This document shows positions 1,819-35,030 of a stretch of DNA of 38,838 nucleotides, piece after piece. This DNA comes from a virus (taxonomy: Duplodnaviria; Heunggongvirae; Uroviricota; Caudoviricetes), in IMG/VR virus record IMGVR_UViG_3300035670_000017, positions 128,850 to 167,687 of that record. One strand, 5' to 3'. Each line of letters begins with the position of its first letter. Position 1 is the first letter of the stretch. The notes beneath the pieces are model-generated. The model ran no database searches and was not told where the DNA came from. It saw nothing but the letters and a program-made list of their open reading frames with translations. Both the position numbers and the translations under genes were made by a program.

Positions 1819-2475
1819 ATGAGCGAAATCACTAATGATCATCTCCTGATCCATGTTGAATCTGATCGCTATCCAGTCTCTTTGACTGAATTCAAGCGTC
1901 TGGTTCCTGGTTATCTCTTCGGTGCAACTGTGCCTGAGGAAATCATCAATGAAAGCGGCTACCGTGTCGTTGATCGAGTAGACGCACCTATTGGTGATGT
2001 GGTTGTTGAGCAACCCCCTCAGCCTAATGGTGCACGCTATGTTCAGATCTATTCTTTCCGTGCTTTCAATGAGCAGGAAAAAGCTGAGCAACTGGCTTTG
2101 GCTAAGGAAGCTGCGCTGAACGAAGCCAAGATCGCTGCAGCATGGACACGCGAACAAGGTGCTCCTTACCAGTTTGCTTCTGGTGAGCAGCATGTGCAGC
2201 TGCGTGATGCGGACATCAGCAATCTGACAGGTCTGGGTCTGAAGGCTGATCGCGATCCTTCTCGCACCTACTACTTCCGAAGCCAAGAGAACGTCACCAA
2301 CGCTCTGACTGGCGCAGAGGTACGCGCACTCACAGACTATGCTTTCGAGCGCTTTGAGCGCTTCCTGGAGGCTTACTGGGGTGTTCAGAATGTGATCGAA
2401 GGTTGCACTTCGATTGCTGACATTCCTTCCAAGGAAGTGATTCGTCAAACCATCAACAGCTCTGTTCTCGCTTAA
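1819..2475 (+). CDS. Tail fibre assembly protein, DUF4376-like (218 aa)
   Basis: C-terminal HVQLRDADISNLTGL...YYFRSQENVTNALTGAEVRAL pattern typical of DUF4376-like fibre chaperones. Lies directly after fibre genes with SD TAAGGA. Confidence 0.65.
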   Translation: MSEITNDHLLIHVESDRYPVSLTEFKRLVPGYLFGATVPEEIINESGYRVVDRVDAPIGDVVVEQPPQPNGARYVQIYSFRAFNEQEKAEQLALAKEAALNEAKIAAAWTREQGAPYQFASGEQHVQLRDADISNLTGLGLKADRDPSRTYYFRSQENVTNALTGAEVRALTDYAFERFERFLEAYWGVQNVIEGCTSIADIPSKEVIRQTINSSVLA

Positions 2476-2499: not shown

Positions 2500-2534
2500 T
2501 ACACTCTGTTGTCCTTCATGGGCAACAGAGTGTA
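2500..2534 (+). terminator. Hairpin ending the fibre operon
   Basis: TACACTCTGTTGTCC-TTCAT-GGGCAACAGAGTGTA, 15-bp stem with one G-U pair. No clean U-tract. Confidence 0.7.
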
Positions 2535-2692: not shown

Positions 2693-3154
2693 ATGAAAAC
2701 ACATCGAACACTAGGCAGTCTACTAGCGAGCCGGGTCATCAATGAGCCTTGGGAGAAGCCTACCAAAGAAGCACTTCTTACCATGAGAGCTATAGGTTTC
2801 TCAGATGACTATGTACCGAGTTATAATGTACTGGCCTTTGGATGGAGGATCAGTCATATATTCCAACACATCCCCGATCTGAGTTCTGATATGTTTGCTG
2901 AAGAGCACAAACAGATGATGTGTAAGGATTTTCTGTGGTTATGTAATCAGATCTCTGGGCTCAAGGTTTTGAGAAAGAAATACTCCGATGGATGCGTGGT
3001 TGAACGCTATAATCAATGCTTGGATGATTTCAATATGAAGCTTTCATGGATCATGCCAGGATGCTACGAATATATTTCTAAGAAAAGAATTCTAGTGAAT
3101 CCAATTACTAAGTCGACGTTCATCGTCGGATGGAAAGAATATAAGGAGGACTGA
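2693..3154 (+). CDS. Hypothetical protein (153 aa)
   Basis: SD GAGGTG upstream, and TGATG coupling to the next gene. Confidence 0.75.
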   Translation: MKTHRTLGSLLASRVINEPWEKPTKEALLTMRAIGFSDDYVPSYNVLAFGWRISHIFQHIPDLSSDMFAEEHKQMMCKDFLWLCNQISGLKVLRKKYSDGCVVERYNQCLDDFNMKLSWIMPGCYEYISKKRILVNPITKSTFIVGWKEYKED

Positions 3155-4281
3155 TGCAGTTACACAATAGGCACACGATGCCTAAGGACATCCAAGCTAC
3201 ATATATAGGCAGAGGGACTATCTGGGGAAATCCTTATGTGGTCAGCGAAAATGGCTTAGATCAAGCTTCAGCGGCTTTGTTGTATCGTAAATCCTTGGCC
3301 AGGCGCTTGGCAGGTAGAGACCCTGTTTCGGTTGACAAAGTTCTGAAGCTCGCTGGTGTCGAACACATTTGCTGCTCGTGCGCCCCTAGACCTTGTCACG
3401 GTGATTGCTTCGTTGAAATCTGGAACATCATCCGGGACAAGAAGATAAAACCCCTAGAAGGTATCCGGGAGTGGGTCAAGCTCAATGGGTATAGCTATGG
3501 TCCTTTGACAGATGGCAAAGACCACATCAATATCTATAGCAAAGCCAAGACTCGGTTAGGGAAGTTCCTGACCAACATGTCGGATGTTCCTGTAAAGACC
3601 AAGCACGGAGTCTTTCAGAGCATGGAGGGCTACTGGTATTGGTTAAGTACTGGTGAGCAGCATGACTTCTTTCGAGACGCTCAGTGTTTTGAGGCTAAGA
3701 AACGCGGCAAGGGGTTGGAACGAATTGGTAATTCTACGATGCAACAAGACATCAAAGATGCCATGTACGAGAAACTCGTACAGTATCCAGCGATGTTGGA
3801 GTTATTTAAGAAGTCTGAGCTTCCATTCACTCATTACTACTTCTTTGGTCAAGACGACGACAGAACTGTAGTCTATCCGGCTTATGATTGGATCACTGCG
3901 GAATGGGAGAGACTCAGAAAGCTTTTCCGTGGTGAGTTAAAGAGATGTATCATTGCTGGTAGTCGAACCATCACTGATTATGAGATCGTTGAGAAGGCTG
4001 TTAAGGACAGCGGCTTTGAGTTTGATGAGGTAGTATGTGGTGAGGCTATGGGAGTTGATACACTAGGACGCTACCACGCCATGCGCAATAAACTCTACAT
4101 CAAGAGCTTCATTCCTGACTGGACCAATCTAGGCAAGAAGGCCGGAATGTTGAGAAACATCGACATGGGTAACTATGCGGATATGGCTATTGTCATCATC
4201 AAAGACCATAGCAAAGGCAGCACTCAGATGAAAGAGTACATGGAGAGTTTGAAAAAGCCTGTATACTCCGTGCATCTGTGA
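3154..4281 (+). CDS. DUF4326 - NADAR-like - YspA/SLOG three-domain fusion protein (375 aa)
   Basis: aa ~1-95: YIGRGTIWGNPY...CCSCAPRPCHGD (DUF4326). aa ~120-255: INIYSK..LGKFLTNM..P....GVFQSMEGYW...EAKKRG...EKLVQYP (NADAR, T4 30.3-like). aa ~264-375: IIAGSR...VVCGEAMGVD...DW...GKKAGMLRN..M..YAD......SKGS (YspA-like SLOG). Confidence 0.8.
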   Translation: MQLHNRHTMPKDIQATYIGRGTIWGNPYVVSENGLDQASAALLYRKSLARRLAGRDPVSVDKVLKLAGVEHICCSCAPRPCHGDCFVEIWNIIRDKKIKPLEGIREWVKLNGYSYGPLTDGKDHINIYSKAKTRLGKFLTNMSDVPVKTKHGVFQSMEGYWYWLSTGEQHDFFRDAQCFEAKKRGKGLERIGNSTMQQDIKDAMYEKLVQYPAMLELFKKSELPFTHYYFFGQDDDRTVVYPAYDWITAEWERLRKLFRGELKRCIIAGSRTITDYEIVEKAVKDSGFEFDEVVCGEAMGVDTLGRYHAMRNKLYIKSFIPDWTNLGKKAGMLRNIDMGNYADMAIVIIKDHSKGSTQMKEYMESLKKPVYSVHL

Positions 4282-5232: not shown

Positions 5233-5237
5233 ATAAG

Positions 5238-5272
5238 GATACTATCCAGGCTAAAAAAGCCTGGATAGTATC
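5238..5272. terminator. Hairpin
   Basis: GATACTATCCAGGCT / AGCCTGGATAGTATC, 15-bp perfect stem, immediately before a promoter motif. Confidence 0.75.
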
Positions 5273-5298
5273 TACTGTTTATAAAAAATTTCATTCAC

Positions 5299-5383: not shown

Positions 5384-5905
5384 ATGTTCAATCTCGGTTT
5401 CACTGTTCAATACGTCGAAGGTATCCGTCTGGAAATTATCTCTGACTGGATGCTGTCCGTGAATACGACTCTGCGTACTCGCTTGTGGTCGGGCTGCGGT
5501 GCTGTCGCTGTTCGATTGGAGAACCCCTTGGTCGATCCAAATACCACTCGTCCGGACATCTGTATCCTCATGGCTGAAAAGCTCAAGGAGTATTTGACTG
5601 AAGACGAATTCAATGCTATCTTGGAACACGAACTGGCCCATATCCGCAATGGTGATTTGGATAATCTTCAGATCTCCAAGAAGATGAAGATCCAAGTAAA
5701 CATGGATTATGAAATGGCTGCTGACCAAGCGGCTGTTGCTAAATACGGAGCAGCCACTTTGCTGTCGGCTTTGACTAAGATCCGTCGCGCTCAGATCGAA
5801 AACCTGCTGTTCATTAAGAACAAGAAGGTTGTTGATTTCATCTGCCGTGTGTTTGTGGACAAAGTGACCCGCAAACGCTTGGCTGTTTTGAAGCAAGCTA
5901 TCTAA
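5384..5905 (+). CDS. Zn-metallopeptidase, M48-like, soluble (173 aa)
   Basis: EFNAILEHELAHIRNGD (HEXXH) plus downstream EMAAD, and the LxSALxKI motif of the M48 family. No transmembrane segment. Confidence 0.8.
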   Translation: MFNLGFTVQYVEGIRLEIISDWMLSVNTTLRTRLWSGCGAVAVRLENPLVDPNTTRPDICILMAEKLKEYLTEDEFNAILEHELAHIRNGDLDNLQISKKMKIQVNMDYEMAADQAAVAKYGAATLLSALTKIRRAQIENLLFIKNKKVVDFICRVFVDKVTRKRLAVLKQAI

Positions 5906-10587: not shown

Positions 10588-11694
10588 ATGAACCAAGAAA
10601 CCAAACCTGCTGTGATGTACACAGTCTGTCATACTGACCTGGACGAACTTGTCCTGGATATCATGACTCTGGTACAACAAGGCCAGATCACCACACTACC
10701 ACCCATTCTAGATGAGAGTTACTCTAATCTAGGTAACGTAATGTCACCGGAGGACATCAACCAGATTCACAATCTGCTGAATCGGCGCAAATACACCGCT
10801 TATGAAGAGAACGTACTCAACGCCATTGCGCAGTGGAACCTACGCAACAGCAGCTCGTTCCTGAAATCCATCATGGCGGCAATTTGCTATACGCTGCATT
10901 CGACCCAACGGTTGGGTCAGCTGCCTTCTACGACTGAATTGCTTGCCGTCAAAACAGGCATGCCTTCAGATGTAGCTCGATCTTTACACATGGAAACTCC
11001 TGAGACCATTCGTCGGCTGATCAAAGCTGCAGTGGGTAACGGTCCTGTGGAGGCAAAGATCCCTGTCAATGGGTATTCGGACGAGATCTCGAAGTTGATC
11101 AAGATCGACTCGCGTGATCCGACTGAAGTGGAGAACCTGCGTCGTTACCTGGGCTCCACGGATACCAAGACAGTGTTGAAGGCGAATTCCATGGATCGCA
11201 AAGAGTACATTGCTCGTTTGTTGATCCAGACGACGAAGACTGTGAGTGAGTATAAGAACGAAGACTCGTTCAGTACTCTACGCAGCTTCCTCAATAACGC
11301 CGGTCACATCTGCACATTGATCCGTGTCTTCTCGAACACCACGGACAATTATCAGTGGATCTCCAAGCTGGCTTGTGATGTCAATGACCAAATCCATAGC
11401 CTGGATCGTCTGTTGAGCGCAAACGCTGTGCTGGCCCGGCAAATGCTGACACGCATGATTCAGAACAATGAGGTCATCTACAAGGACCTGATGGATCTGA
11501 CTCGTCACCAGCACCGTATCCTGGCTATCGAAGCGGCCGGGGTATTCACAATGTTCAGCTATCTGTTCAAGAGCGTAGAGTATGATTTCATCCTGCGCCA
11601 TGAAGAGTTGAGCAAATCCATCACGCGCATGTTGCGCTATACAGAAATCTCTACCAAGTACACCAACGAGATCTCTGTCAAGTTGGAAAGCTGA
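10588..11694 (+). CDS. Hypothetical alpha-helical protein (368 aa)
   Basis: Long ORF with biased codon usage. No motif recognised. Confidence 0.8.
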   Translation: MNQETKPAVMYTVCHTDLDELVLDIMTLVQQGQITTLPPILDESYSNLGNVMSPEDINQIHNLLNRRKYTAYEENVLNAIAQWNLRNSSSFLKSIMAAICYTLHSTQRLGQLPSTTELLAVKTGMPSDVARSLHMETPETIRRLIKAAVGNGPVEAKIPVNGYSDEISKLIKIDSRDPTEVENLRRYLGSTDTKTVLKANSMDRKEYIARLLIQTTKTVSEYKNEDSFSTLRSFLNNAGHICTLIRVFSNTTDNYQWISKLACDVNDQIHSLDRLLSANAVLARQMLTRMIQNNEVIYKDLMDLTRHQHRILAIEAAGVFTMFSYLFKSVEYDFILRHEELSKSITRMLRYTEISTKYTNEISVKLES

Positions 11695-11725
11695 GAAGAG
11701 AGTTCATTAATTCAAGAGGAGTCAA

Positions 11726-12373
11726 ATGCAAATTAGCATGAGACGTGTATCTGACATCGACACGGTTGACCGAATCTTCAACCCGATCGAAGACACACAG
11801 TTCAGAACTTATCTTCGTGATAAATATGAACGCACCATGGAGCACTTGGAGAAAGTCACTACAGGGACCGCTCGCGATTTTCTCGATCGCTCCAAGCGGA
11901 TCTTTGAAGAGATCAACTCCAGTGCTGCTTTGCGTAGAACGCGAGCTGCTATTCGTGCTGTCACTGGGGTGCGGCGCAGTGATAGCATCTATCGTCCTGT
12001 GGATCTAGGGGAATTCCAGGCAGTGGGACTTCGCATGCAGCGATTCCTGTTGGCTGACCCTGTGATCCGTCGCAAGGTCATCAAGCAACAGATTGATGGC
12101 TACAGCCATTCTCAACCAGCTCCTGATCCAACTGCCATCGGAGAAAACGATTACGACTATCGTCGTGTTGTTAACGGTGTCTTCATGGAGCAGCCTGGTG
12201 AGGGTGATGAGAAGAACTTTGTGCATACAGAGTACTTCGAGAAACTTAAGGAAGGCGATCGTGAGTTGGATGTCGAAGAGCAATTCGATATCATCGACAG
12301 CTGGTATATGCAACGCGCATTGCAAGCTGCAGGTGCCGACACTACATCGCTTCGTGGTGATTTGATCACTTAA
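11726..12373 (+). CDS. Hypothetical protein, probably chimallivirus core (215 aa)
   Basis: SD GAGGAG. Lies upstream of the SbcD-like gene, where conserved unknown genes occur in phiKZ-like phages (synteny inference). Confidence 0.75.
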   Translation: MQISMRRVSDIDTVDRIFNPIEDTQFRTYLRDKYERTMEHLEKVTTGTARDFLDRSKRIFEEINSSAALRRTRAAIRAVTGVRRSDSIYRPVDLGEFQAVGLRMQRFLLADPVIRRKVIKQQIDGYSHSQPAPDPTAIGENDYDYRRVVNGVFMEQPGEGDEKNFVHTEYFEKLKEGDRELDVEEQFDIIDSWYMQRALQAAGADTTSLRGDLIT

Positions 12374-33100: not shown

Positions 33101-33150
33101 TACCACTCCCTCTGCTTTCGCAGAGGGAGTGGTAGTGGTTTGTTTTTTAT
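33101..33150. terminator. Bidirectional terminator between convergent blocks
   Basis: TACCACTCCCTCTGC-TTTC-GCAGAGGGAGTGGTA, 15-bp stem, T-rich on the + side. Confidence 0.8.
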
Positions 33151-34088
33151 TTCAGATAGAAAGCGATCACACGACCGCGGCCTTCTTCACTGAACTTCTC
33201 ACCGACGATCGCATTGACGTTCACCACTTGGTTCACGCTCTTGGGATCGAGGGCAGTTGCTTCCAGCAGGTTAGTCAGAGACGTCAGAATCTGATACTGC
33301 TTGGGATCGCGTTTCCATTCCTTGGCACCACGGCTGTAGTACACAGGGCTGAAACACGCAGAGCGATACTCACCGAAGTAAGCGATAGCCAGACGCCACA
33401 GACGTGGGAACTCATGGCTGGGCGAGCGCTCAATAATAGACACCAGCTTGTCGTACAGACCTTCTTGCCACTTCAGGATGTCAGCAGGCGAAGTGATGCG
33501 ACGAGGAGCCATGACTTCAACGTAACGCTCGAAGAACGAGATCACATCGACAGCCCAGGTAGAACCCTTGACCTTCTCAGCTGCGATCATCGCTGCGAAC
33601 TCATTGGAGGTCACGACTTTCGCCGCGTTACCCGTACTTTGAGGGGAAGCTTGGCGAGGAGCGGCGCCATCGGGTCGTTTGACGATCTTGGGATCGACGG
33701 CCTTGGGCTTAGCCTGGATGGTGGGTTGTTCACTTGGTTGCTTCGCTTGGGTGGTGTCTGTGACATCAGAAGTAACTTTCACGGCTTGAGGTGCTGGATC
33801 CTTGACATCCTTGGCTTCAGAGACCAGGGCGCCCAGATCCACCACTGCTGGGGTGGACGATTCGGTTTTGCCAGCATCAGCAGGCGCTTCGGTACCAGGC
33901 ACAGATGCCTCAGTCACAGGGACAGGTGCCTCACTCGCAGATTCTGTATCAGCAGGCTTTTGTGCTTCGCTGGAACCTTGTGCTTCCTTGGCAGCAGCTT
34001 CAGCCAGGGCCTTGGCGTGTGCCTCTGCAACTGGATCAGTTTGCGGGGCTTGAGTGGACTTGTTGAATACGTTGTTTTGCTTCGACAT
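33147..34088 (-). CDS. Hypothetical protein with an A/P/E/T/Q/K-rich disordered N-terminal half and a helical C-domain (313 aa)
   Basis: About 150 aa of low complexity followed by a folded-looking domain. Strong codon bias on this strand. Confidence 0.8.
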   Translation of the reverse strand: MSKQNNVFNKSTQAPQTDPVAEAHAKALAEAAAKEAQGSSEAQKPADTESASEAPVPVTEASVPGTEAPADAGKTESSTPAVVDLGALVSEAKDVKDPAPQAVKVTSDVTDTTQAKQPSEQPTIQAKPKAVDPKIVKRPDGAAPRQASPQSTGNAAKVVTSNEFAAMIAAEKVKGSTWAVDVISFFERYVEVMAPRRITSPADILKWQEGLYDKLVSIIERSPSHEFPRLWRLAIAYFGEYRSACFSPVYYSRGAKEWKRDPKQYQILTSLTNLLEATALDPKSVNQVVNVNAIVGEKFSEEGRGRVIAFYLK

Positions 34089-34091
34089 TGT

Positions 34092-34985
34092 TTAGGACTC
34101 CAAGAATTGACGCAAACGAGGGATTGCGTTGGGGTTAGAGAGATTGATGACGGGGATGTTCATCGCCTTAGCAATCGCTGCGACGTGACCGGCTTGACCG
34201 GACTGCATCGTGCGGGTAGCTGGACCTTCACATCCATCTTCAGACCAAATGATGACAATCTGGCATGGTTGCTTCAGGTACTTGCCCAGGATCAGACGCA
34301 CGTTCTTGGCATAGAACGATTGTTGTACTTCCTTGATGTTACTCCATTCAGGCAAATAGCGCTTGGCAAATTCCTTGCACTCGTCGTTGCTGAAATAAGA
34401 AGCTTCGCCCTGGACTTGGTTGAAGTTCTTCCACGGAATGTGAAGCTCGACACCTGGAATGGTTTCCATCACCATTTTGTCAAAACCGTCCATACAGGAT
34501 GCACGGATGGTATATCCATGGTGAGCCAGGATGTTGCCAGCTTCTGCAATCAAAGGCTTCAGTTGATCAGGCGCGCGGCCGTTACCGGTAATGACAGCAG
34601 TCTTGGGGAGCTTAAGCTTTTCCAGTTCCTCAGGGGTCAGAGGCTTCGGTTGTTGACGATTCTTCCAGTTACCGCCACCGCCACCTCCGCCACCATTGCG
34701 ATTCCAATTACCACCACCTCCTTGGCGATTCTGCCAGTTACCGCCGTTGTTTCCACCTTGACGGTTTTGCCAATTACCACCATTGTTGCCTCCGCCGCCA
34801 GTCGAGGTGTACTGAGGCTGCTGCTGTTGTGGAGCTTGGTTCTGATAGCTGCCACCGGAGTAGCTGTTTTGAGAAGGCGCAGGTGCTTGGTTGCTGCTTT
34901 GACCGAAGTTCATCGGTTGTTCAGTGAATCCAGGGCGAGATTCAGGCTGGCCGCCTTGACCCTGGTTATTTTGATAGAAATCCAT
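34092..34985 (-). CDS. Prion-like Q/N/G-rich domain fused to a divergent DprA/Smf-like SLOG domain (297 aa)
   Basis: aa 1-112 low complexity. Then ITGNGRAP...GYTIRASCMDGFD...LHIPWKNFN...FYAKNVRLILG......IVIIWSEDG...SGQAGHVAAIA..MNIPVINL, aligned by eye to phage DprA-like SLOG (GIGSR...RSGGADGAD...YLPW..FN...ARN...LG...VICWTPDG...GGTG.A..IA...IPVFNL). SD AAGGAG. Confidence 0.75.
   Translation of the reverse strand: MDFYQNNQGQGGQPESRPGFTEQPMNFGQSSNQAPAPSQNSYSGGSYQNQAPQQQQPQYTSTGGGGNNGGNWQNRQGGNNGGNWQNRQGGGGNWNRNGGGGGGGGNWKNRQQPKPLTPEELEKLKLPKTAVITGNGRAPDQLKPLIAEAGNILAHHGYTIRASCMDGFDKMVMETIPGVELHIPWKNFNQVQGEASYFSNDECKEFAKRYLPEWSNIKEVQQSFYAKNVRLILGKYLKQPCQIVIIWSEDGCEGPATRTMQSGQAGHVAAIAKAMNIPVINLSNPNAIPRLRQFLES
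34653..34793 (-). repeat. Coding tandem repeat (GGNNGGNWQNRQ x2, GGGGNWNRN, G8NWKNRQ)
   Basis: Read directly from the translation. The DNA copies differ at synonymous positions. Confidence 0.85.
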
Positions 34986-35030
34986 AACTACTCCTTGGGT
35001 GTTGTTTAAGGTATACCCACCTTATACAGG

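What the first reader, a model, noticed from the sequence alone, without database searches (positions are those of the whole stretch)
3154..4281. DUF4326-NADAR-SLOG three-domain fusion: candidate ADP-ribose/NAD counter-defence enzyme
Seen: three recognisable domains in one 375-aa chain. Established: NADAR proteins, including the T4 30.3-like family and DarT1-associated NADARs, remove ADP-ribose from guanine in DNA. SLOG domains bind nucleotides (the ThsA SLOG binds NAD+, LOG enzymes cleave AMP). DUF4326 has unknown function and often occurs in such neighbourhoods. Inference: a single-polypeptide pathway that reverses host ADP-ribosylation and processes the released nucleotide, or degrades NAD-derived immune signals. 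It is notable in a phage whose DNA should be shielded by a nucleus, which points to action before shell assembly, on RNA, or on signalling molecules. I do not know of a characterisation of this architecture.
Basis: partly seen in the sequence, partly recalled or inferred. Interest (0 to 1): 0.8.

Follow-up and report, generated by a model that had tools for sequence, protein, structure and literature searches.

The report
Jumbo-phage three-domain ADP-ribose eraser candidate
A nucleus-forming giant phage encodes one protein that joins DUF4326, a divergent NADAR-type enzyme domain and a DprA-like nucleotide-binding domain; it most likely strips bacterial ADP-ribose marks from phage nucleic acid, a kind of fusion already predicted from genomes but never assayed.

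Summary
ORF 3154-4281 (+) is a real 375-aa gene. It has a strong ribosome-binding site, and full-length relatives (97% down to about 31% identity) occur on jumbo-phage contigs.

All three domain calls are right:
- **DUF4326:** Pfam match above the cut-off.
- **Middle domain:** NADAR/YbiA fold (Z 11.7 and 10.7). It is the phage gp30.3 type, with invariant Glu158 and His227, but the phosphate-binding Lys is replaced by Ser165 and no Pfam NADAR model matches it.
- **C-terminal domain:** YAcAr/DprA-like SLOG with the DprA base-pocket motifs GSR and RN. It lacks the LOG motif.

- The genome does encode chimallin, so it is a nucleus-forming phage.
- The two-domain homologue in Erwinia phage RAY (gp153) was shown by GFP to sit inside the phage nucleus. 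Its gene lies directly after an AdfM-like Macro gene.
- Four-domain relatives fuse an AdfM-type Macro to the same DUF4326-NADAR-SLOG chain.

This points to removal of ADP-ribose from phage nucleic acid inside the nucleus, not to action before shell assembly.

Fusions of DUF4326 with SLOG, Macro and NADAR were already described computationally (Iyer et al. 2021, 2022). This scan has also noted such cassettes in at least 70 other genomes. I rate it a new member of a known kind: moderate interest, untested biochemistry.

The parts
3143..3149 (+). Shine-Dalgarno sequence AAGGAGG, ending four bases upstream of the ATG
   Evidence: Read directly from the sequence.
3154..4281 (+). Whole gene, 375 codons plus stop: DUF4326-NADAR-SLOG fusion protein (P0001)
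   Evidence: full-length homologues.
3154..3444 (+). DUF4326 domain, residues 1-97. Invariant I18, R20, N26, C74, C76, C81, H82 and G83 (P78 is invariant among the 32 full-length homologues)
   Evidence: Pfam PF14216 E 2e-13. Separate model with pLDDT 95.9. All top AlphaFold DB clusters are DUF4326. Best solved-structure match is the RapZ C-terminal domain at only Z 4.9, followed by Cys-phosphatases near Z 3.
3445..3492 (+). Linker helix, residues 98-113
   Evidence: Helix 100-110 in the model.
3493..3936 (+). Divergent NADAR (YbiA-fold) domain of the phage gp30.3 type, residues 114-261. Invariant N126, N141, E158 and H227. Ser165 stands where other NADARs have the phosphate-binding Lys
   Evidence: Fold matches. 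Profile against the PDB puts YbiA first (E 0.017) and 8bau second (E 0.057). hhalign to T4 gp30.3/AdfN gives 84% probability, E 7e-6. No Pfam NADAR or Phage_30_3 match.
3937..4278 (+). SLOG domain (YAcAr/DprA-like), residues 262-375, with G269-S270-R271, G296/G300/D302, R334-N335 and S353/G355
   Evidence: Pfam YAcAr E 2.3e-5. phrog_289 E 2e-19. YpsA Z 12.0, DprA Z 11.6, ShosA Z 11.6, ThsA SLOG Z 8.1. Motifs compared with PMC3950713.
2693..3154 (+). Upstream 153-aa ORF, overlapping the fusion gene's start (TGATG); no known family. Not a conserved partner
   Evidence: Absent from the 79%-identical relative's locus L006.
2500..2534 (+). Terminator-like hairpin; possible upstream limit of the transcription unit
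   Evidence: Consensus scan only.
5237..5273 (+). Terminator-like hairpin; possible downstream limit of the transcription unit
   Evidence: Consensus scan only.

Best explanation
The gene encodes a counter-defence enzyme centred on ADP-ribose.

Most likely mechanism:
- After import into the phage nucleus, the NADAR domain hydrolyses the N-glycosidic bond between ADP-ribose and a base, using Glu158 and His227. The base would be guanine, as made by DarT1-type toxins, and possibly cytosine. The substrate would be phage single-stranded DNA, or RNA.
- The DprA-like SLOG domain supplies a pocket, built from the GSR and RN motifs, that grips a flipped-out base of ssDNA or the adenine nucleotide of the adduct. 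This would raise affinity for the substrate.
- The DUF4326 domain, with its invariant Cys/His cluster, adds a second activity that is still unknown. It sits at the position that an AdfM/DarG2-type Macro domain occupies in relatives.

Shown here: the gene, the three folds, conservation of the candidate catalytic residues, the fusion and neighbourhood links to Macro, and chimallin in the genome.

Taken from papers: the activities of NADAR enzymes, and the nuclear localisation of the RAY homologue and of AdfM.

Inferred: the substrate, the role of SLOG, the role of DUF4326, and nuclear import of this particular protein.
For: 1. **NADAR fold with catalytic residues kept.** YbiA Z 11.7 and ADPr-bound NADAR 8bau Z 10.7 over nearly the whole domain; Foldseek probability 1.00. 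E158 aligns with E43 of the Phytophthora NADAR. H227 aligns with H123 of T4 gp30.3, which is the His that defines phage NADARs (PMC11543638, PMC11125620). Both residues are invariant in 32 full-length and 29 domain-level sequences.
2. **Tested NADARs are base-ADPr hydrolases.** Every phage NADAR tested so far removes guanine-ADPr. T4 AdfN and the Bas32 and Bas60 NADARs counter DarTG1 (bioRxiv 10.1101/2024.07.11.602962). NADARs act on base-linked ADPr in both DNA and RNA (PMC11833690, PMC12945103).
3. **Recurrent linkage to DNA-ADPr-removing Macro domains.**
   - P0053 is Macro-DUF4326-NADAR-SLOG. Its Macro domain is 38% identical to phiKZ gp104/AdfM.
   - P0066 is DUF4326-Macro-NADAR-SLOG.
   - In RAY, gp152 is Macro (34% identical to AdfM, E 1e-21) and lies directly before gp153, the NADAR-SLOG protein.
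   - In Salmonella phage SA002, a Macro-NADAR fusion is flanked by SLOG genes.
   - P0339 is DUF4326 plus a canonical Pfam NADAR.
4. **Nuclear localisation of relatives.** RAY gp153 (32% identity over residues 117-364, E 4e-33) localises with phage DNA in the nucleus (PMC10299810). AdfM is also nuclear and removes DarT2 marks (PMC13309987).
5. **Chimallin.** The genome encodes chimallin (phrog_4795, E 6e-43). All four IMG/VR contigs tested with near-full-length matches to the fusion also encode it.
6. **SLOG motifs.** The SLOG domain has both DprA ssDNA-pocket motifs, G-S-R and R-N, which are invariant (PMC3950713).
Against: - **Missing Lys.** The Lys that coordinates the ADPr phosphate is Ser165 here. 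This is K50 in the Phytophthora NADAR, K95 in E. coli C7 and K42 in T4. K95 was essential in E. coli C7 (PMC11543638).
- **Weak sequence evidence.** No Pfam NADAR or Phage_30_3 model matches. Comparison with a single canonical NADAR sequence was not significant. Family membership therefore rests on fold, on one 84% hhalign result and on marginal profile hits.
- **Untested steps.** Nuclear import is known only for a 32%-identical homologue that lacks DUF4326. No host, DarT system or assay is available.
- **Possible limits on activity in cells.** T4 AdfN and YbiA failed to rescue cells from DarT1 in one study despite in vitro activity (PMC11125620).
- **Alternative published view.** Iyer et al. 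(PMC9503650) favour soluble ADPr derivatives as substrates for phage NADAR, SLOG and DUF4326.
Confidence: 0.5

Rival explanations
1. Degrader or sponge of soluble NAD-derived molecules. The three domains would cut different bonds of diffusible immune signals or toxic metabolites, such as cyclic ADPR isomers of Thoeris, His-ADPR, ADPr-1''-phosphate or Appr>p. SLOG would act as sensor or N-glycosidase, and DUF4326 would remove terminal phosphates.
For: This is the published prediction for phage NADAR, SLOG and DUF4326 fusions (PMC9503650, PMC7824862). The SLOG fold also matches the ThsA SLOG bound to 3'cADPR (7uxs, Z 8.1). A SLOG protein, ORF83, is listed as an anti-Avs protein and is predicted, not shown, to bind AMP through an R-N pair; our domain shares that pair (preprint 10.1101/2025.06.06.658234).
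Against: - The RAY homologue is concentrated on phage DNA inside the nucleus, whereas TIR/Thoeris signalling is cytoplasmic (PMC10299810).
- The fused or adjacent Macro domains are of the DarG2/AdfM type, which acts on DNA.
- The reported NADAR activities are an N-glycosidase acting on riboflavin-pathway intermediates, as cited in PMC9503650 and PMC11125620, and base-ADPr hydrolysis on nucleic acids (PMC11833690). None of the NADAR papers read here reports activity on cyclic ADPR or other immune signals.
- The LOG catalytic motif PGGxGTxxE is absent.
Confidence: 0.25
2. Clean-up of by-products of the phage's own NAD-consuming enzymes. Tpt1/KptA produces Appr>p during RNA repair and the NAD-dependent ligase consumes NAD. 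The protein would be a housekeeping or NAD-salvage enzyme, not a counter-defence one.
For: The same contig encodes an intact Tpt1 about 15 kb upstream (PF01885, E 1.6e-50). NADAR has been linked by context to RNA-repair systems (PMC9503650).
Against: None of the five related jumbo-phage genomes carrying the fusion or its NADAR-SLOG form has Tpt1; three of them are rated complete. The gene's neighbourhood is not conserved and holds no repair genes.
Confidence: 0.08
3. Eraser for a phage-encoded ADP-ribosyltransferase. The enzyme would protect phage nucleic acid from, or reverse, marks written by the phage's own transferase on host targets.
For: T4 AdfN lies near the alt ADP-ribosyltransferase genes, and Iyer et al. 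note early co-expression of NADAR with transferases. An earlier unchecked note of this scan proposes an ART-like ORF at G000 58447-58929.
Against: That ORF has no Pfam match at E up to 1, and the protein atlas gives no ART family for it. No transferase lies near the gene here or in relatives.
Confidence: 0.07
4. DprA-like recombination mediator, as RAY gp153 is annotated. The SLOG domain would load a recombinase on ssDNA, and the other domains would be accessory.
For: The SLOG fold matches DprA (Z 11.6), and the two DprA ssDNA motifs are present (PMC3950713). RAY gp153 is nuclear and lies three genes after UvsX (PMC10299810).
Against: - The Pfam DprA model scores only E 0.26, whereas YAcAr scores 2e-5.
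- Of DprA's three domains, only a SLOG domain resembling its Rossmann-fold domain is present. The SAM and winged-helix domains are my recollection of DprA architecture, not a tool result.
- Two-thirds of the protein is DUF4326 plus NADAR with conserved catalytic residues, and relatives add Macro.
Confidence: 0.05

Closest known systems
T4 gp30.3 / AdfN and other phage NADAR anti-DarT1 factors (NADAR Bas32, Bas60)
   Same: Phage-encoded NADAR-fold domain with the catalytic Glu and the phage-type His in the last strand (hhalign 84%). No toxin partner. The expected chemistry is removal of guanine-linked ADP-ribose.
   Different: AdfN is a single 152-aa domain in a phage without a nucleus, and it keeps the phosphate-binding Lys (K42). 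Here the Lys is Ser165, the Pfam Phage_30_3 model does not match, and the domain is flanked by DUF4326 and SLOG.
Erwinia phage RAY gp153 ('DprA-like protein') and the equivalent genes of Ea35-70-like and SPN3US-like chimalliviruses
   Same: Same NADAR-like plus SLOG module (32% identity over 262 residues, E 4e-33; best BFVD fold match, E 3.5e-23). Also a nucleus-forming jumbo phage. A GFP fusion is nuclear (PMC10299810).
   Different: gp153 has no DUF4326. Instead, an AdfM-like Macro gene (gp152) lies directly upstream. It was interpreted as a recombination protein; its NADAR half is not mentioned in the passages read.
AdfM (phiKZ gp104), the chimallivirus DarG2-like Macro anti-DarT2 factor
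   Same: Precedent that a nucleus-forming phage still needs an imported DNA de-ADP-ribosylase. AdfM-type Macro domains are fused to this very architecture in relatives (P0053, 38% identity).
   Different: Different fold and chemistry: Macro acting on thymine-ADPr. No Macro domain was found on this contig, which is rated 61% complete.
Predicted viral ADPr-processing fusions of DUF4326 with SLOG, Macro and NADAR (Iyer, Burroughs, Anantharaman, Aravind 2021 and 2022)
   Same: The same set of domains, in jumbo phages. DUF4326 is placed in the rhodanese-phosphatase superfamily, which agrees weakly with the Cys-phosphatase fold matches here.
   Different: Those papers are comparative genomics only and favour soluble ADPr derivatives as substrates. 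They do not use the nuclear-localisation data.
DarG1 / DarT1-associated NADAR antitoxins (E. coli C7; G. lovleyi, PDB 8BAT)
   Same: Shared fold (Z 9.4) and the conserved Glu.
   Different: Those enzymes use Asp in the last strand, keep the Lys, and are encoded next to DarT1. None of this holds here.

Membership tests
Pfam DUF4326 (PF14216) | Match to the family model above the curated cut-off | tested here: met
   51.2 bits against a cut-off of 25, E 2e-13, residues 12-87.
Pfam DUF4326 (PF14216) | Same predicted fold as other family members | tested here: met
   The N-terminal model (pLDDT 95.9) matches DUF4326 clusters in AlphaFold DB with probability 1.00 and TM up to 0.68.
Rhodanese / Cys-phosphatase superfamily (proposed home of DUF4326) | Strand-loop-helix active site with a catalytic Cys, and clear fold similarity to solved members | tested here: inconclusive
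   The best solved match is the RapZ C-terminal domain (Z 4.9). Several dual-specificity phosphatases score Z 2.8-3.3. Invariant C74/C76/C81/H82 lie between strand 71-74 and helix 83-96, but there is no CX5R motif.
NADAR superfamily | YbiA fold | tested here: met
   2b3w Z 11.7 (138 aligned); 8bau Z 10.7 (137 aligned, rmsd 3.3); 8bat Z 9.4. Foldseek top hit YbiA, E 2.4e-4.
NADAR superfamily | Match to Pfam NADAR (PF08719) or Phage_30_3 (PF08010) | tested here: not met
   No match for the protein at E up to 1. Among 29 domain homologues, only 3 touch Phage_30_3 (best E 0.051) and 1 touches NADAR (E 0.078). None of the 120 relatives listed, out of 1247 found, carries a Pfam label on this domain.
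NADAR superfamily | Conserved catalytic Glu (E43 in P. nicotianae, E88 in E. coli C7) | tested here: met
   E158 aligns with this Glu in YbiA, 8bau and T4 gp30.3 and is invariant.
NADAR superfamily | [quoted passage not shown] | tested here: met
   Invariant H227 aligns with H123 of T4 gp30.3 (hhalign 84%). By spacing it falls at E125 of 8bau. A residue-level structural superposition was not possible.
NADAR superfamily | Phosphate-binding Lys seven residues after the Glu (K50, K95, and K42 in T4) | tested here: not met
   The position is S165, followed by nearly invariant T166-G167.
Anti-DarT factor NADAR (AdfN), a functional class | Removes guanine-ADPr from DNA and restores phage growth on DarTG1 hosts | not testable with these tools
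   Needs enzyme and plaque assays.
SLOG superfamily, YAcAr family (PF10686) | SLOG Rossmannoid fold | tested here: met
   YpsA 2nx2 Z 12.0 (113 aligned, rmsd 2.7); DprA Z 11.6; ShosA Z 11.6; LOG 5wq3 Z 8.5; ThsA SLOG Z 8.1.
SLOG superfamily, YAcAr family (PF10686) | Match to the family model above the cut-off | tested here: inconclusive
   24.6 bits against a cut-off of 28.2 for this protein. Homologues with the same architecture pass, for example P0080 at 41 bits and P0066 at 28.6 bits. phrog_289 E 2e-19.
DprA/Smf (PF02481) | Family model match, plus the G-S/T/A-R and x-x-R-N/D ssDNA-pocket motifs | tested here: inconclusive
   The model scores only E 0.26. Both motifs are nevertheless present and invariant: G269-S270-R271 and R334-N335 (PMC3950713).
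LOG phosphoribohydrolases | PGGxGTxxE catalytic motif | tested here: not met
   The equivalent stretch reads S-K-G-S-T-Q-M-K, with no conserved acid.
Chimalliviridae-type nucleus-forming phage (genome context) | Encodes the nuclear shell protein chimallin and multisubunit RNA polymerases | tested here: met
   A 642-aa ORF at G000 82381-84309 matches phrog_4795 'nuclear shell protein' at E 6e-43 and phiKZ gp54 at E 5.6e-8. RNA polymerase subunits and phiKZ-like gene order are present in the window.

The most novel reading that the evidence does not exclude
DUF4326 is a new Cys/His-dependent hydrolase that removes a class of ADP-ribose adduct which NADAR cannot remove, for example thymine-linked or phosphate-linked ADPr. 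It would stand in for the AdfM-type Macro domain, which is missing from the two complete genomes whose loci match the fusion over nearly its full length. The protein would then be a broad-spectrum nuclear ADP-ribose eraser whose SLOG domain docks on ssDNA.
Probability: 0.2. Interest if true: 0.75.

Novelty: new member of a known kind. Interest (0 to 1): 0.45.

Why it matters
Nucleus-forming phages were thought to be shielded from DNA-targeting defences, until AdfM showed that DarT2 still reaches their DNA. If this NADAR-SLOG module is the guanine-side counterpart, chimalliviruses carry a paired set of nuclear enzymes that remove ADP-ribose from DNA. RAY gp153, currently called DprA, would then need re-annotation.

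The protein also offers a convenient test case for two unassayed domains: DUF4326, and the large NADAR-like clade that Pfam does not recognise (at least 1247 sequence clusters). That clade has lost the canonical phosphate-binding Lys.

Tried and rejected
- **Direct sequence searches of solved structures and phage records.** phmmer against PDB sequences gave only chance hits. Megablast of the region against cultured phages found nothing. No cultured phage record covers 80% or more of the protein.
- **Pfam and NCBIfam for the middle domain.** No match.
- **hhalign of the domain profile against one canonical NADAR (P0339).** Not significant, 5% probability.
- **Solved-structure search for DUF4326.** Nothing above Z 5.
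- **Window ORF 33129-35009 (+) as chimallin.** Rejected. There is no similarity to phiKZ gp54, no phage hits, and low recognition in the protein atlas. Two minus-strand genes with PHROG matches lie under it. Chimallin is elsewhere on the contig.
- **The genome search with phiKZ gp54 on the contig.** Found nothing. An unfiltered phmmer search over the six frames did find it.
- **Conserved operon partner.** None. The neighbourhoods differ between relatives.
- **Tpt1 co-occurrence.** 0 of 5.
- **phiKZ itself.** No match to the fusion profile.
- **ART-like ORF noted earlier in this genome.** No Pfam support.
- **Burroughs et al. paper on the rhodanese-phosphatase superfamily.** It could not be retrieved, so its view of DUF4326 is not used.
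- **Residue-level structural superposition and inter-domain geometry.** Not possible, because model coordinates are not exposed.
Full report
**1. The gene is real.**
ORF 3154-4281 on the + strand encodes 375 residues. The opposite strand is closed by many stops. AAGGAGG lies at 3143-3149, and the ATG overlaps the stop codon of the upstream 153-aa ORF as TGATG. A search of 5.8 billion proteins found 73 relatives. About 50 of them cover the whole length, at 97% down to about 31% identity, and several lie on contigs of 214-322 kb. An exhaustive profile-free search found 74 clusters (at 50% identity) with E at or below 1e-30; roughly two dozen of these span all three domains. An alignment of 32 full-length members has invariant residues in every domain.

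**2. Domain anatomy.**
An AlphaFold2 model built from that alignment is confident throughout (mean pLDDT 93.8, pTM 0.85).
- **Residues 1-97: DUF4326.** Pfam gives 51 bits against a cut-off of 25. Folded alone (pLDDT 95.9), the domain matches only other DUF4326 models in AlphaFold DB. It has no strong solved relative: the best match is the RapZ C-terminal domain at Z 4.9, followed by a run of Cys-based dual-specificity phosphatases near Z 3. This agrees weakly with the published placement of DUF4326 in the rhodanese-phosphatase superfamily (PMC9503650). The invariant residues are I18, R20, N26, C74, C76, P78, C81, H82 and G83. The Cys/His cluster sits between a strand and a helix.
- **Residues 114-261: NADAR fold.** There is no Pfam or NCBIfam match. 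The fold matches E. coli YbiA (Z 11.7, 138 residues aligned) and the ADP-ribose-bound Phytophthora NADAR 8BAU (Z 10.7, 137 aligned), and G. lovleyi NADAR 8BAT, a DarT1-system species (Z 9.4). Foldseek ranks YbiA first with probability 1.00.
- **Residues 262-375: SLOG domain.** The best matches are YpsA (Z 12.0), DprA (Z 11.6) and ShosA (Z 11.6). The ThsA SLOG and LOG enzymes score lower. Pfam YAcAr scores 24.6 bits, just under its 28.2 cut-off. Homologues with the same architecture pass the cut-off.

**3. What kind of NADAR.**
- A profile of 29 domain homologues ranks YbiA first and 8BAU second in the PDB, but only at E 0.017 and 0.057.
- Profile comparison with T4 gp30.3 (AdfN) gives 84% probability and E 7e-6.
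- These alignments place invariant E158 on the catalytic Glu (E43 in Phytophthora, E88 in E. coli C7). They place invariant H227 on His123 of gp30.3, the histidine that the literature uses to define phage NADARs, as opposed to Glu in the YbiA type and Asp in the DarT1-linked type (PMC11543638, PMC11125620).
- The Lys seven residues after the Glu is Ser165 here. That Lys binds the ADPr phosphate and was essential in E. coli C7 NADAR.
- The domain family is large, with at least 1247 clusters at 90% identity. It occurs alone, with DUF4326, with SLOG, or with both, and the relatives listed carry no Pfam label on this domain.
- I therefore accept superfamily membership on fold and catalytic residues. 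This is a divergent clade, and its activity cannot be assumed to be identical.

**4. What kind of SLOG.**
The two motifs that Wang et al. defined for the ssDNA base pocket of DprA are G-S/T/A-R and x-x-R-N/D (PMC3950713). Both are present and invariant here, as G269-S270-R271 and R334-N335. The LOG catalytic motif PGGxGTxxE is absent. This argues for a binding role, for a DNA base or a nucleotide, and against AMP cleavage. A preprint predicts that an anti-Avs SLOG protein, ORF83, uses the same R-N pair to bind AMP, and reports homologues fused to DUF4326 in amoeba viruses (10.1101/2025.06.06.658234). That is a prediction, not an assay.

**5. Context in this genome.**
The window is the last 38.8 kb of a 167.7-kb IMG/VR contig rated 61% complete.
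- The contig has phiKZ-like multisubunit RNA polymerase genes and phiKZ-like gene order.
- It has a 642-aa chimallin gene: phrog_4795 at E 6e-43, and phiKZ gp54 at E 5.6e-8.
- The contig encodes Tpt1/KptA. No Macro domain was found on it.
- The immediate neighbours have no known family. They are not conserved even in a 79%-identical relative.
- Terminator-like hairpins at 2500-2534 and 5237-5273 may bracket the transcription unit. This rests on a consensus scan only.

**6. Context in relatives, which carries most of the functional argument.** The order [Macro or DUF4326]-NADAR-SLOG recurs both as fusions and as adjacent genes.
- P0053 is Macro-DUF4326-NADAR-SLOG. Its Macro domain is 38% identical (E 1e-33) to phiKZ gp104. 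That protein was shown to be AdfM, a nucleus-imported enzyme that removes DarT2 thymine-ADPr from DNA (PMC13309987).
- P0066 is DUF4326-Macro-NADAR-SLOG.
- P0339 is DUF4326 fused to a canonical Pfam NADAR, at 53 bits.
- In Erwinia phage RAY, gp152 is an AdfM-like Macro protein (E 1e-21 to gp104). It lies directly upstream of gp153, which is the NADAR-SLOG homologue of our protein (E 4e-33).
- In Salmonella phage SA002, a Macro-NADAR fusion is flanked by SLOG genes.
- Prichard et al. found GFP-tagged RAY gp153 co-localised with phage DNA in the nucleus, and read it as DprA (PMC10299810).
- All four IMG/VR contigs tested whose loci match the fusion over nearly its full length encode chimallin. 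Their full domain composition was not checked. The shorter forms also occur outside nucleus-forming phages: one complete 211-kb genome lacks chimallin.
- Two complete genomes with such near-full-length matches have no Macro domain at all. This is compatible with DUF4326 taking Macro's place, but the sample is very small.

**7. Mechanism.**
- Tested NADARs hydrolyse base-linked ADP-ribose (guanine, and for some cytosine) on DNA and RNA, and do not touch phosphate-end ADPr (PMC11833690, PMC12945103).
- Phage NADARs from three lineages counter DarTG1 (10.1101/2024.07.11.602962).
- The stronger activity of E. coli C7 NADAR was attributed to nucleic-acid binding (PMC11833690). A fused DprA-like pocket could provide that binding here.
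- I therefore favour a nuclear nucleic-acid de-ADP-ribosylase, at confidence 0.5. The more general statement, that this is an ADP-ribose-centred counter-defence enzyme, I would put near 0.75.
- The main rival is the soluble-signal model of Iyer et al. (0.25). Nuclear localisation of the RAY homologue and the DNA-type Macro partners weaken it, but it is not excluded, because small molecules may enter the shell.
- By-product clean-up for Tpt1 is weakened by 0 of 5 co-occurrence.
- A writer-eraser pairing lacks a confirmed writer.
- A pure DprA role ignores two-thirds of the protein.

**8. Novelty.**
Fusions of DUF4326 with SLOG, Macro and NADAR in jumbo phages and giant viruses were reported from comparative genomics in 2021 and 2022. 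This scan has 76 earlier notes on such cassettes in at least 70 genomes. New here:
- the placement of the middle domain in the gp30.3-type branch, with a lost Lys;
- the DprA-type pocket motifs in the SLOG domain;
- the link between this family and published nuclear-localisation data, which suggests that RAY gp153 is a NADAR enzyme and not a recombination mediator.

The finding is a new member of a known, computationally predicted kind, and no biochemistry exists for it yet.

Noticed in passing
L002:1315-2643 (G000 10670-11998, outside the window): A 442-aa ORF has a very basic N-terminus followed by a second NADAR-like segment (DGIDHINIW...). The catalytic Glu is replaced by Asn (FRNIYALW), so the copy is probably inactive. 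It has no Pfam match.
   Followed up: partly
window 33129-35009 (+), 33147-34088 (-) and 34092-34985 (-): The 626-aa + strand ORF looks like a shadow of two minus-strand genes. One of these (34092-34985) is a second SLOG protein in the window, matching phrog_768 'DprA-like' at E 1e-21.
   Followed up: partly
L090:382-2310 (G000 82381-84309): Chimallin (nuclear shell protein) gene, 642 aa. The filtered genome search missed it; an unfiltered phmmer search and PHROG 4795 found it.
   Followed up: yes
L089 (G000 116457-116957): Intact Tpt1/KptA RNA 2'-phosphotransferase (PF01885, E 1.6e-50). It is absent from five related jumbo-phage genomes that carry the NADAR-SLOG module.
   Followed up: yes
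L092:3495-4852 (Erwinia phage RAY gp152-gp153): gp153, annotated and published as DprA-like, is a NADAR-like plus SLOG fusion. gp152, annotated 'putative phosphatase', is an AdfM-like Macro protein. The pair looks like a two-gene ADP-ribose eraser module next to UvsX.
   Followed up: yes
L093:1616-3918 (Salmonella phage SA002 MGA_141-143): Three adjacent genes: SLOG, a Macro-NADAR-like fusion, and a further SLOG protein. This is another arrangement of the same module.
   Followed up: partly
window 5384-5905 (+): A 173-aa ORF with weak matches to zinc metallopeptidase models. M48 scores 23.8 bits, above its cut-off; M56 and PhageMetallopep also match weakly. A 187-aa ORF overlaps it on the opposite strand.
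   Followed up: no
Pfam gives no match at E up to 1, and the protein atlas offers only unnamed clusters, with DUF6886 in 12% of one cluster.
   Followed up: partly
window 1819-2475 (+): DUF4376/phrog_4998 protein directly upstream of the unit. It is conserved at the same place in the 79%-identical relative, and a second DUF4376 gene lies further upstream there.
   Followed up: no
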